A program made the translations under genes and the position numbers. This document shows, piece after piece, positions 8,454 through 10,165 of a DNA stretch of 21,433 nt; within the stretch, counting starts at the first letter, position 1, and the number at the start of each line of letters is the position of its first letter. Origin of the DNA: a virus; the UHGV virus genome UHGV-0131019, one strand, 5' to 3'. Under the pieces are notes generated by a model, which worked only from the letters and a program-made list of their open reading frames with translations, was not told the DNA's origin and made no database searches.

Positions 8454-8876
8454 ATGTCAGAAGTAGCTGTTGAACTTGAAGAGGATTCTTGGCCTGATTT
8501 TTTCCCGGTTGGAGTACCGCCGAAATCAGCCGTCCCTGCTGAGGGCGAGTTTTTCCGTTTGGTAAGGTCTAATCCACCAACCCCTGCATGTTTCCTCTCT
8601 ACACATGAAGAGTATCCGCAGCGGCACAAAAAGTATCGTGGGGAAGCACTTCAGTGTGTCTATGGAACATCATTCTTTTCAGAATCGCGCGGGGCTACGG
8701 ATGCAAAAGCTAAATTTCCTGCAGCTCTTGGTCATCGACTCGTTGCTAGTGGTCAGATCACCCCCGTTTTCGGAGTAATGAAAAAAACATTTGCCGATCC
8801 AGCGCACTACACAATTTGGCTTAAGCGTAATTGTGCTATTCATGAACATTTTCACTGTATAGGAGAAGGCGTATGA
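8454..8876 (+). CDS. Hypothetical 140-aa protein, first gene of the second accessory island
   Basis: ORF whose stop overlaps the start of the next gene (ATGA at 8873-8876). C-terminal His/Cys cluster (HEHFHC). No homology recognised. Weak RBS; start could also be 8406. Confidence 0.5.
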   Translation: MSEVAVELEEDSWPDFFPVGVPPKSAVPAEGEFFRLVRSNPPTPACFLSTHEEYPQRHKKYRGEALQCVYGTSFFSESRGATDAKAKFPAALGHRLVASGQITPVFGVMKKTFADPAHYTIWLKRNCAIHEHFHCIGEGV

Positions 8877-10165
8877 GTAACGTTTTTCTACCTAATACAA
8901 TGATGGGCACTCTATGTTACAAAAGAGTTTATGAGTTCTTCGAAGAGCCTCGCTTCTTTTCAGTTGAAAATGAAGTTAGTACACTTTTTATCGTTTACTG
9001 GATTGGTGAGGATGATGAATGTGATAGTTGGTTTATCATACCAATTTCTCCAGGGCGATTAGAGTTGATTGAAAGAAAAAGAATATGTATCCGTGATGCT
9101 TTGATTAATCAGGAGCAAAACTTTTTCTATGAAGCCCATATACCATACGATCGTACAGGCAAAGTGACTTGGCTGAGTAAAAACTTGGTTGATATATTTG
9201 AAATACCTTTGCCTGTTTCTGAACTATATATAAGTTCGGTAGTTCCAGTAATGCCAAATGGTAAACTGGGCGAGGCTATTACTTACTCAACTCATGAGAT
9301 CCATTTAGAAAAAAGCTCAAAGAAAAGTGCAAAAAATTTGGTTTTAAGTCATGTGTCAAACGTATGCGACAGATTCAGCGATCTTTATGACAGAATGCTG
9401 GAGATGGCAAAGTGCAAAGATAAATTACGTCCTGTCGATGCGCGGCCTGGTTCCTTTATCATTTCTTTTAAAGCTGAGAAATTACATTCCTTTGAAGACA
9501 CTTTTAAAGAATTAAGCAGGCTGATAGAACTTAGAGCTGATATTATTCCTTTTGTTTTCGAAAAGGGTATTGATGTTCCAGCTTTGACAGATCTCTTACA
9601 ATCCATAGTTGAAACCGGAACGAATATGGAACTCAAAAGCAACCAGACAGGTGAATTAGCTTTTGTTATTACAAAAGCTGGTGCTGAGTTCTATTTAAAA
9701 AAATTATCACGTCTTTCTACCTCATTGGTTGGAGGGCATCAAATACCTCAAGCAGATGTCCTCGAGACAGTTTATAAATTAGTGGAAATTGTTTGGAGTG
9801 GCGAACCACTTACTCCTATTAATACTGGTTTGCAAGATAGACATATCTACTATTATAAGCATGCAGCTAAAGTTTTGGGATTACTTGATAGCTTTGGTAA
9901 TGTCACAACGTCTGGTCAACAACTCGTACAAAGTGATGAGATGACTAGACATAAAATTGCAGCGAGAAAATTTGAAGTGAGTCATGTGGGATGGGCTTGG
10001 ATAAATTGGGCCAGTGTTGAACATTTATCCCAAATTGATCCTGACAGCGCTTTAGACTTTCTATTGGAGCAATGCCACTCTTTAAGTCGTGATACTATTG
10101 AACGACGTGCTACAACTATTAAACACTGGTGCCGTGAATTGAAAAATTATTATACACCTCTGTAA
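8873..10165 (+). CDS. Hypothetical 430-aa protein, second gene of the accessory island
   Basis: Long AT-rich ORF, translationally coupled to the upstream gene and followed by a strong intrinsic terminator. No TM segments, no Walker or known nuclease motif recognised. Confidence 0.7.
   Translation: MSNVFLPNTMMGTLCYKRVYEFFEEPRFFSVENEVSTLFIVYWIGEDDECDSWFIIPISPGRLELIERKRICIRDALINQEQNFFYEAHIPYDRTGKVTWLSKNLVDIFEIPLPVSELYISSVVPVMPNGKLGEAITYSTHEIHLEKSSKKSAKNLVLSHVSNVCDRFSDLYDRMLEMAKCKDKLRPVDARPGSFIISFKAEKLHSFEDTFKELSRLIELRADIIPFVFEKGIDVPALTDLLQSIVETGTNMELKSNQTGELAFVITKAGAEFYLKKLSRLSTSLVGGHQIPQADVLETVYKLVEIVWSGEPLTPINTGLQDRHIYYYKHAAKVLGLLDSFGNVTTSGQQLVQSDEMTRHKIAARKFEVSHVGWAWINWASVEHLSQIDPDSALDFLLEQCHSLSRDTIERRATTIKHWCRELKNYYTPL

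What the first reader, a model, noticed from the sequence alone, without database searches (positions are those of the whole stretch)
8454..10165. Translationally coupled 140-aa + 430-aa gene pair of unknown function in the Rz-to-cos moron slot
The two ORFs overlap by ATGA (8873-8876). The larger gene is strongly AT-rich against a GC-balanced phage backbone. The pair is bracketed by a palindrome-rich upstream region and a strong intrinsic terminator (10192-10217), so it reads as a self-contained inserted cassette. Neither protein shows a motif I can assign (no Walker A, no TM segments; only a C-terminal HEHFHC cluster in the small protein). The Rz-to-terminase interval is where lambdoid phages carry lysogenic-conversion and exclusion genes (bor-like). 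I consider this the strongest candidate for an undescribed system in the window.
Basis: partly seen in the sequence, partly recalled or inferred. Interest (0 to 1): 0.85.

Follow-up and report, generated by a model that had tools for sequence, protein, structure and literature searches.

The report
PD-T4-10-like toxin–antitoxin defence cassette in prophage
The gene pair is real and is a self-contained prophage cargo cassette, but it is not an undescribed system: it is a divergent relative of PD-T4-10, a tested two-gene toxin–antitoxin phage-defence system whose mechanism is still unknown.

Summary
A 140-aa gene (8454-8876) and a 430-aa gene (8873-10165) overlap by ATGA. They form a low-GC (0.39) unit with its own promoter and terminator, inserted between the Rz-like gene and the small terminase.

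It is not a new kind of system. Both proteins match the two PADLOC models of PD-T4-10 weakly and in the right order. Vassallo 2022 showed that in PD-T4-10 B is toxic, A neutralises it, and the pair gives abortive-infection defence against T-even phages.

Across 86 loci and seven distant lineages, an A-like gene always sits directly upstream of a DUF6575 gene. A matches PD-T4-10_A over nearly its full length. B matches only in its N-terminal DUF6575 module. Its C-terminal part differs between branches: winged-helix array/DUF7226 here, SF2 helicase, PDC-M63B-like domain or split genes elsewhere.

Verdict: a new variant of a known but mechanistically unsolved kind.

The parts
8338..8365 (+). Sigma-70-type promoter-like site: TTCACA (-35), 16-nt spacer, TG-n-TATATT (extended -10). 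It marks the left border of the mobile cassette.
   Evidence: 10 of 12 matches, TG present. Both hexamers are invariant in 11 cassettes whose coding DNA is only ~70% identical. Homology with other backbones begins at 8337/8338. Promoter function is inferred, not shown.
8374..8422 (+). Conserved inverted repeat TGCCAACA (8374-8381) / TGTTGGCA (8415-8422) with a divergent 33-nt spacer, between the promoter and the RBS. It is either a candidate operator or a 5'-UTR hairpin.
   Evidence: 8 of 8 complementary. The arms are conserved in 11 diverged cassettes while the spacer varies. The only arm variant (A to G) keeps RNA pairing as G-U. Its role is undecided.
8443..8445 (+). Shine-Dalgarno-like GGA, 8 nt upstream of the ATG of gene A.
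   Evidence: Read from the sequence. CACGG[AG]AT is conserved in the 11-cassette alignment.
8454..8876 (+). Gene A, 140 aa. It belongs to a PD-T4-10_A-like family with no Pfam model. The predicted fold resembles ADP-ribosyltransferases, and R35, S73, H118 and W122 are nearly invariant. Presumed antitoxin or regulator.
8873..10165 (+). Gene B, 430 aa. Residues ~1-150 form a beta-rich DUF6575 N-module, the part shared with PD-T4-10_B. The middle and C-terminal regions look like winged-helix modules (DUF7226, ~297-426). Presumed toxin or effector.
8873..8876 (+). ATGA overlap of the A stop codon and the B start codon, which suggests translational coupling.
   Evidence: The same 4-bp overlap is present in 67 of 86 related loci; the others have -1 to +34 bp, apart from one aberrant ORF call in L014.
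10190..10218 (+). Intrinsic terminator: an 11-bp stem, a GUCU loop and a U-run.
   Evidence: dG -16 kcal/mol, z -3.7.
8338..10247 (+). The whole mobile cassette: promoter, A, B and terminator. GC is 0.39.
   Evidence: Borders come from blastn against 98 loci and from the cassette-free sister prophage L016. GC.

Best explanation
This is a prophage-borne two-gene toxin-antitoxin-type abortive-infection cassette of the PD-T4-10 superfamily. It is expressed from its own promoter in the lysogen.

Shown here:
- Both proteins are homologous to the two PD-T4-10 components, in the same order and with the same overlapping-ORF layout.
- A is obligatorily linked to the N-terminal DUF6575 module of B across phyla.
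- The cassette is modular and mobile, and sits in prophage cargo slots.

Taken from experiments on the homologue (Vassallo 2022): B is the toxic component, A neutralises it, and the pair aborts infection by T-even phages.

Inferred from predicted structures:
- A docks on the conserved DUF6575 N-module of B and keeps it inactive.
- A has an ADP-ribosyltransferase-like fold with nearly invariant R35 (beta1), S73 (beta2) and H118/W122 (beta5). The neutralisation may therefore be enzymatic, using NAD+, rather than purely steric.
- B acts through its winged-helix array on nucleic acid, for example by binding DNA and blocking replication or transcription, once infection removes or inactivates A.
- The conserved inverted repeat downstream of the promoter could be the autoregulatory site for the winged-helix part of B.
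For: Homology to PD-T4-10:
- A hits PD-T4-10_A at 8e-6 over almost the whole profile, and B hits PD-T4-10_B at 2.8e-4.
- Relatives score better: A up to 1.3e-11 and 2e-12, B up to 3e-9 and 1.1e-9 over profile positions 9-165.
- PD-T4-10 has two overlapping ORFs, B is toxic, A neutralises it, and it gives Abi defence against T-even phages. DUF6575 is listed as a defence domain in that paper.

Obligate A-DUF6575 pairing:
- 86 of 86 loci found from the B side.
- 7 of 7 distant A members traced to contigs.
- Also the Oscillatoria plasmid and a low-GC phage contig.

Mobility and prophage cargo:
- 59 IMG/VR contigs carry the pair.
- Slots are Rz to terminase, Q to holin/lysozyme, integrase-adjacent and methyltransferase-adjacent.
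- Borders fall at the promoter and after the terminator, and a sister prophage has other cargo in the slot.

Purifying selection acts on both genes.

Folds:
- A resembles ART-fold proteins, with R/S/H/W 97-98% conserved in 242 members.
- B's C-terminus resembles FokI/BrxA/MarR winged helices. DUF7226 is hit by 45 of 45 members and HA2_N winged helix by 5 of 45.
- The conserved positions of B's N-module look structural rather than catalytic.
Against: - The match of this B to PD-T4-10_B covers only 58 residues. No relative matches beyond profile position 165 of 353. The part of PD-T4-10B that may carry its toxicity is therefore not shared, and transferring 'B is the toxin' to this subtype is an assumption.
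- I could not retrieve the ECOR65 PD-T4-10 sequences for a direct alignment.
- No enzymatic domain is visible in B.
- One locus (L040) has a split A with an intact B, which is odd if A is an essential antitoxin, though it may be a sequencing error.
- No deposited phage genome (50,697 records) carries either gene.
- No experiment was done on this cassette.
Confidence: 0.6

Rival explanations
1. The roles are inverted. A is the effector, an active ADP-ribosyltransferase-type toxin acting on nucleic acid or protein. B is the sensor and regulator: its DUF6575 N-module holds A in check, and its variable nucleic-acid-binding C-terminus (winged-helix array, or helicase in other lineages) recognises phage DNA or RNA and releases A.
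For: - A has the near-invariant polar residues expected of an enzyme and an ART-like fold shared with many toxins, including RES, DarT, ParT, Scabin and TreX.
- The parts of B that vary between lineages are all of the nucleic-acid-recognition type: wHTH, SF2 helicase, FokI/BrxA-like.
- B's N-module has no catalytic-looking conservation.
- The order 'small enzyme, then binding partner' is that of ART toxin-immunity pairs (established knowledge).
- Another system from the same screen, PD-T4-9 (CmdTAC), uses an ART toxin.
Against: In the only tested homologue, B alone is toxic, A neutralises it, A could not be deleted, and deleting B abolishes defence. The ART similarity is weak and lacks the catalytic Glu.
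Confidence: 0.2
2. The pair is a plain addiction or regulatory module, or an anti-defence cargo, that benefits the prophage. It would stabilise the prophage or modulate the host, and would not protect against other phages.
For: - The toxin-antitoxin layout, own promoter and possible operator are also typical of addiction modules.
- Many family members lie outside prophages, among ordinary chromosomal genes.
Against: PD-T4-10 was recovered by functional selection for phage resistance. The pair recurs in the classic prophage cargo slots and sits beside other defence genes, such as KwaB and SduA_C in the Vibrio prophage. Defence and addiction are not mutually exclusive.
Confidence: 0.12
3. The two genes are accessory lysis or DNA-packaging genes of the phage itself, given their position between Rz and the terminase.
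For: Position only.
Against: - The same cassette sits in unrelated slots (Q to holin, integrase-adjacent) and in non-phage genomes of other phyla.
- A sister prophage with the same lysis and packaging genes lacks it.
- It has its own promoter and terminator and a foreign GC content.
- PHROGs gives no hit, and no sequenced phage in INPHARED carries it.
Confidence: 0.02

Closest known systems
PD-T4-10 (Vassallo et al. 2022, Nat Microbiol; E. coli ECOR65, RCO36089.1 + RCO36088.1; PADLOC PDLC04023/PDLC04024)
   Same: - Two same-strand genes, small A then larger B, with overlapping ORFs.
- A is homologous over nearly its whole length.
- B shares the N-terminal DUF6575 module.
- Both occur in E. coli.
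- No function was predicted for either protein in the literature up to 2024.
   Different: - B here is 430 aa, with a winged-helix/DUF7226 C-terminal region that does not match positions 165-353 of the PD-T4-10_B profile.
- The hits are weak (8e-6 and 2.8e-4), and B covers about 16% of the profile.
- RefSeq annotates the pair only as 'hypothetical protein' and 'DUF6575 domain-containing protein'.
- Toxicity and defence are untested for this subtype.
ART-fold toxin systems: RES-Xre, ParST, MbcTA, DarTG, CmdTAC (PD-T4-9); and Tpt1/KptA
   Different: - In those systems the ART-fold protein is the toxin. In PD-T4-10 the A protein is the antitoxin.
- A has His where the catalytic Glu would be.
- There is no sequence-level similarity, and Foldseek is not significant.
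BrxA (BREX) and the FokI / N.BspD6I DNA-recognition domains
   Different: The resemblance is structural only, at 7-13% identity. B has no nuclease domain, and nothing else from BREX or a restriction system is adjacent.
Enzymatic-antitoxin (type VII) TA systems such as HepT-MntA (from my own knowledge)
   Same: The proposed logic is the same: a small enzyme keeps its partner toxin inactive by modifying it.
   Different: This is hypothetical here. The chemistry would be ADP-ribosylation rather than AMPylation, and no modification has been shown.
Lambdoid lysogenic-conversion morons (lambda bor, rexAB; from my own knowledge)
   Same: A self-contained, promoter-plus-terminator cargo unit of low GC in a variable slot of a lambdoid prophage.
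   Different: The proteins are unrelated.

Membership tests
PD-T4-10 | Two adjacent same-strand genes, small A upstream of larger B, with overlapping ORFs | tested here: met
   ATGA overlap at 8873-8876, present in 67 of 86 relatives. The layout of PD-T4-10 is described.
PD-T4-10 | A homologous to PD-T4-10_A over most of its length | tested here: met
   E 8.1e-6, residues 21-136 against profile positions 25-144 of 148. 41 of 73 family members hit, best 2e-12. L005 scores 1.3e-11. The match is weak but consistent and collinear.
PD-T4-10 | B homologous to PD-T4-10_B over its full length | tested here: not met
   Only residues 32-89 match, against profile positions 35-92 of 353. No relative extends past profile position 165.
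PD-T4-10 | B carries DUF6575 | tested here: met
   PF20215, E 1.8e-37, 129 bits against a cut-off of 26.6. The paper names DUF6575 among its defence domains. That the domain belongs to PD-T4-10B is my inference from the collinear profile hits.
PD-T4-10 | B toxic, A neutralises; abortive-infection defence against T-even phages | not testable with these tools
   Needs expression and phage-challenge experiments.
PD-T4-10 | Direct pairwise similarity to RCO36089.1 / RCO36088.1 | not tested
   These sequences could not be retrieved from the available collections. Only the PADLOC profiles were available.
ADP-ribosyltransferase (ART) fold superfamily (protein A) | Split beta-sheet ART fold | tested here: inconclusive
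ADP-ribosyltransferase (ART) fold superfamily (protein A) | NAD+-site motifs: R/H on beta1, S-x-S or Y on beta2, catalytic E/Q/D on beta5 | tested here: inconclusive
   R35 and S73 lie on the first two strands and are 98% conserved. The expected acidic position is H118 (97% conserved), so no catalytic Glu is present. The mapping uses strand order only; no superposition was available.
ADP-ribosyltransferase (ART) fold superfamily (protein A) | Sequence-profile match to a known ART, RES or Tpt1 family | tested here: not met
   No Pfam hit for any of the 73 members. No PDB sequence hit. hhalign against E. coli KptA gives probability 0.05%.
Pfam DUF7226 (PF23871; protein B C-terminus) | Score above the gathering threshold | tested here: inconclusive
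   The window protein scores 22.8 bits against a cut-off of 27. All 45 family members hit at E<=0.1, best 3.5e-7.
Classical type II toxin-antitoxin | A small antitoxin with a DNA-binding domain that autoregulates the operon | tested here: not met
   A has no HTH or RHH domain. The winged helices are in B. A conserved inverted repeat exists downstream of the promoter, but what binds it is unknown.

The most novel reading that the evidence does not exclude
The PD-T4-10 superfamily has at least 475 A-family clusters at 50% identity and is seen in Proteobacteria, Acidobacteria, Cyanobacteria and a low-GC phage contig. It may be built on an active NAD+-using ART-fold enzyme that serves as the antitoxin or controller, not the toxin. 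This enzyme would act on a dedicated docking domain (DUF6575-N) that is fused to interchangeable nucleic-acid-binding effectors or sensors: a winged-helix array here, an SF2 helicase or a PDC-M63B-like domain elsewhere. That would invert the logic of DarT, ParT, RES and CmdT. It would also tie the firing of the system to NAD+ availability or to phage interference with ADP-ribosylation.
Probability: 0.2. Interest if true: 0.75.

Novelty: new variant of a known kind. Interest (0 to 1): 0.5.

Why it matters
PD-T4-10 is an experimentally validated defence system with no known mechanism. This analysis adds four things.
- PD-T4-10 is one branch of a large, cross-phylum two-gene superfamily defined by an unclassified small protein plus the DUF6575 N-module.
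- The superfamily includes a prophage-borne 430-aa subtype, present in 8 of 5,426 complete E. coli genomes and 59 IMG/VR contigs, which RefSeq annotates only as 'hypothetical protein' plus 'DUF6575 domain-containing protein'.
- There are concrete, testable handles: candidate catalytic residues R35, S73 and H118 in A; a DNA-recognition-like C-terminus in B; and a conserved promoter and inverted repeat.
- The C-terminal part of B is swapped between lineages while the A + N-module core is kept.

If the ART-like antitoxin idea holds, it would be a new regulatory logic for toxin-antitoxin defence.

Tried and rejected
Searches that led nowhere:
- PHROGs and NCBIfam scans of both proteins: no hits.
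- megablast and tblastn against 50,697 deposited phage genomes: no match.
- PDB sequence search with both family profiles: nothing.
- Pfam on all 73 A-family members: only scattered chance hits.
- hhalign of family A against E. coli KptA: nothing.
- Foldseek of A against the PDB: not significant.
- The IMG/VR scan with the diverse A alignment failed because no stretch was conserved enough.

Retrieving the true PD-T4-10 sequences:
- I tried the third indexed protein search with a 73-sequence A profile and a second IMG/VR scan seeded with divergent B proteins.
- These gave more divergent branches (for example L098) but not the ECOR65 proteins.

Ideas considered and rejected:
- The HEHFHC cluster as a metal site: not conserved.
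- A as a RES domain in the R-E-S sense: E52 is only 72% conserved.
- The Salmonella 4-kb 'plasmid' hit as an independent occurrence of DUF7226: it is a truncated linear contig end.
- A lysis or packaging role: see the rival explanations.

Unresolved:
- Short DUF6575 genes (134-153 aa) as a true two-gene minimal system. Extra small ORFs follow them in the same operon, so the C-terminal part may simply be encoded separately.
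Full report
**1. The observation**

The window carries two same-strand ORFs exactly as described.
- A runs 8454-8876 and is 140 aa.
- B runs 8873-10165 and is 430 aa.
- They share the ATGA at 8873-8876.
- The longest possible A ORF starts at 8406. RefSeq annotation of identical DNA and eleven diverged homologues all begin at the 8454 equivalent (MSE...), preceded by a conserved GGA.

The composition differs from the backbone. 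GC is 0.468 in A, 0.370 in B and 0.39 over the cassette, against 0.49 and 0.535 in the flanks.

The claimed terminator is real. An 11-bp stem at 10190-10215 is followed by a U-run, with dG -16 kcal/mol, z -3.7, and none of 200 shuffles folding as well.

Upstream there is a promoter-like TTCACA-16-(TG)n-TATATT at 8338-8365 and an inverted repeat TGCCAACA / TGTTGGCA at 8374-8381 and 8415-8422.

Both genes are under strong purifying selection, with dN/dS 0.04-0.11 against four homologues.

**2. It is a mobile cassette in a prophage cargo slot**

The flanks are lysozyme (7214-7747) and a DUF2514 Rz-like gene (7726-8265) on one side. A DUF1441-type small terminase (10470-10964) and the large terminase (10964-13066) lie on the other.

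The cassette is more than 99% identical in 8 of 5,426 complete E. coli genomes. In strain LR-45 it sits in a decayed Qin-like prophage.

Sister prophages with about 98.6% identical backbone lack it. They carry a different, opposite-strand 230-aa gene in the same slot.

The borders are sharp.
- blastn against all fetched loci shows that ~70%-identical cassettes in other phage backbones begin their homology exactly at 8337/8338, the -35 hexamer.
- The cassette-free backbone resumes homology at 10248.

In an alignment of eleven such cassettes, several elements are invariant while the sequence between them drifts. These are the -35, the extended -10, the two arms of the inverted repeat and the SD region.

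Fifty-nine IMG/VR contigs carry full-length B homologues at 38-100% identity. A script over 86 loci places the pair in several slots.
- Rz or Rz-like to terminase: at least 20 loci.
- Q to holin or lysozyme: at least 18 loci.
- Next to a DNA methyltransferase: about 7 loci.
- Next to the integrase: 3 loci, including Vibrio cholerae prophages that also carry KwaB or SduA_C genes.

No deposited phage genome carries either gene.

**3. What the proteins are**

Pfam assigns B to DUF6575 (residues 3-221, E 1.8e-37), with a sub-threshold DUF7226 hit at 319-420. A has no Pfam, PHROGs or NCBIfam match.

PADLOC gives the key lead.
- A hits PD-T4-10_A at E 8.1e-6, covering residues 21-136 against profile positions 25-144 of 148.
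- B hits PD-T4-10_B at E 2.8e-4, covering residues 32-89 only.

Relatives of the pair score better against the same two models, and always collinearly.
- A reaches 1.3e-11 and 2e-12, and 41 of 73 diverse members hit.
- B reaches 3e-9 and 1.1e-9, but never beyond profile position 165 of 353.

PD-T4-10 was isolated from E. coli ECOR65 by functional selection. It has two overlapping ORFs. B is toxic, A neutralises it and could not be deleted, and deleting B abolishes strong abortive-infection defence against T-even phages (PMC9519451).

That paper's HHpred tables found nothing for either protein, and it lists DUF6575 among newly defence-associated domains. A 2024 survey still calls the genes 'of unknown function'. 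Only these papers mention PD-T4-10 or DUF6575 in the held library.

**4. The superfamily and its modularity**

An exhaustive profile search with A finds 475 representative clusters at E<=1e-3 (73 at <=1e-10). Nearly all are 120-150 aa.

From the B side, an A-like ORF lies directly upstream in every locus with intact upstream DNA (86 of 86). The junction is a 4-bp overlap in 67 of them.

From the A side, all seven distant members that I traced to contigs are followed immediately by a DUF6575 gene. The same holds on an Oscillatoria plasmid and in a low-GC phage contig, right after an amidase-like lysin.

Only the first ~115-150 residues of B are shared. After that the architectures diverge.
- The winged-helix/DUF7226 type of ~430 aa in Enterobacterales, Vibrio, Psychromonas and Rheinheimera.
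- An ~800-aa fusion to a DEAD/ResIII SF2 helicase in Acidobacteria.
- A PDC-M63B-like C-terminus.
- Unassigned C-termini of 395-414 aa.
- Short 134-153-aa forms followed by extra small ORFs.

The conserved positions of the N-module (L14, Y20, P26, F29, N33, S59, R62, L113, P114) look structural. The THEIH and RPGSF motifs are private to the 430-aa subtype.

Two viral contigs hold N-module fragments without A, which are probably decayed.

**5. Predicted structures**

B models with pLDDT 90.7.
- The N-terminal domain (~1-150) is beta-rich.
- The middle region has, by my reading of the DSSP string, a helix-helix-helix-hairpin pattern.
- The C-terminal domain (297-426) is helical.

- The winged-helix parts of DEAH helicases.

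Consistently, five family members touch Pfam HA2_N and all 45 touch DUF7226. No enzymatic fold is evident in B.

Across 242 family members, down to ~25% identity, R35, S73, H118 and W122 are 97-98% conserved, and P22 and G107 are 99% conserved. By strand order, R35 lies on the first strand, S73 on the second, and H118/W122 on the strand where R-S-E type ARTs carry the catalytic Glu.

The caveats are serious.
- Foldseek finds nothing significant (best E about 1). Its only hits with TM>0.3 are again RES, Tpt1, pertussis and cholera toxins and SdeA.
- No sequence-level link exists.
- I could not superpose coordinates.

I therefore treat 'ART-like fold' as probable and 'active NAD+-using enzyme' as a hypothesis.

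**6. How it most likely works**

By homology with the tested system, the cassette is most likely a toxin-antitoxin-type abortive-infection module expressed in the lysogen from its own promoter. B is the harmful component and A its neutraliser.

The universal A + DUF6575-N linkage, set against a changing C-terminus, argues that A acts on or through the N-module.

The near-invariant R, S, H and W in an ART-like scaffold argue that A is more than a passive plug. It may bind NAD+ or modify B, in the manner of a type VII antitoxin.

The winged-helix array suggests that B acts on, or senses, nucleic acid. It may also bind the conserved inverted repeat for autoregulation.

The main rival inverts the roles, with A as an ART effector and B as a nucleic-acid sensor. 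That fits the domain logic and the precedent of CmdTAC (PD-T4-9), an ART toxin from the same screen. It conflicts with the PD-T4-10 genetics. Because this B does not share the C-terminal half of PD-T4-10B, the transfer of roles is not secure, and I give the rival 0.2.

A pure addiction or anti-defence role gets 0.12. A lysis or packaging role is essentially excluded.

**7. Comparison and novelty**

The pair works like, and is homologous to, PD-T4-10. It fails one membership criterion, full-length homology of B. RefSeq labels the pair only as 'hypothetical protein' and 'DUF6575 domain-containing protein'. I file it as a new variant within the PD-T4-10 superfamily, not as a new kind of system.

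It was wrong that the system is undescribed, and wrong that no motif is assignable.

**8. Verdict**

Interest is 0.5. The finding is not categorically new. It does widen a validated but mechanistically unsolved defence family, defines its conserved core, and provides testable residues and domains.

The most novel reading not excluded is an ART-fold enzyme acting as the antitoxin or controller of modular DUF6575-tagged effectors. I give it a probability of about 0.2 and an interest of 0.75 if true.

Noticed in passing
window 3147-4546 (- strand): A second cargo-like pair sits in the Q-to-holin slot, on the strand opposite to the late operon: a 150-aa hypothetical (3147-3599) and a 310-aa protein (3614-4546) that RefSeq calls DUF6731. 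Neither has a PADLOC hit. It is another candidate accessory or defence module.
   Followed up: partly
window 5200-6252 (+): A 350-aa DNA methyltransferase just upstream of the holin gives a very strong PADLOC MTase_II hit (1.3e-152). No restriction partner is evident, so it is probably an orphan, anti-restriction methylase of the prophage.
   Followed up: partly
window 6540-7160 (+): A 206-aa ORF lies between the holin and the lysozyme. Sister prophages have a 114-116-aa YdfR-family gene there, and in one case a small opposite-strand gene as well. It has no PADLOC hit.
   Followed up: partly
window 8374-8422: The inverted repeat downstream of the cassette promoter is conserved in 11 diverged cassettes. 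Its only variant (TGCCAAC to TGCCAGC) keeps RNA pairing as G-U but breaks the DNA palindrome. This hints at a 5'-UTR hairpin rather than, or as well as, an operator.
   Followed up: partly
window 10338-10367: A perfect 12-bp hairpin (ACCACTGTAATA / TATTACAGTGGT) with a T-rich tail lies in the backbone just upstream of the small terminase gene. It is outside the cassette and its function is not examined.
   Followed up: no
L016 8471-9163 (- strand): Sister prophages without the cassette carry a different 230-aa hypothetical gene in the same Rz-to-terminase slot. It has no PADLOC hit.
   Followed up: partly
L040 1473-1932: In one IMG/VR contig the A gene is split into two fragments (98 and 80 aa) while B is intact. 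This is either a sequencing frameshift or a case where B is tolerated without A.
   Followed up: no
L012 7602-10427, L013 4505-7323, L015 7600-10418: In Acidobacteria MAGs the DUF6575 N-module is fused to an ~800-aa DEAD/ResIII + Helicase_C protein. An A-like gene is directly upstream, and the helicase part gives weak PADLOC hits to PbeA, Cas3 and HamB.
   Followed up: partly
L018 6433-7611: A 392-aa DUF6575 protein has a C-terminal part that matches the PADLOC candidate model PDC-M63B (5.7e-12). This links the superfamily to another uncharacterised candidate system.
   Followed up: no
L002 and L008 (genome contigs): Contigs labelled 'MAG: Bacillota bacterium' carry DNA matching Enterobacteriaceae-type cassettes. 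L002 is 100% identical to the E. coli prophage cassette and flanks, and L008 encodes a 64%-identical B. This is probably mis-binned enterobacterial sequence.
   Followed up: no
L027 16510-17293 and L028 16163-16789: The Vibrio cholerae prophages that carry the pair next to their integrase also encode KwaB (Kiwa) or SduA_C (Shedu-like) genes. These prophages therefore carry several defence cargoes.
   Followed up: no
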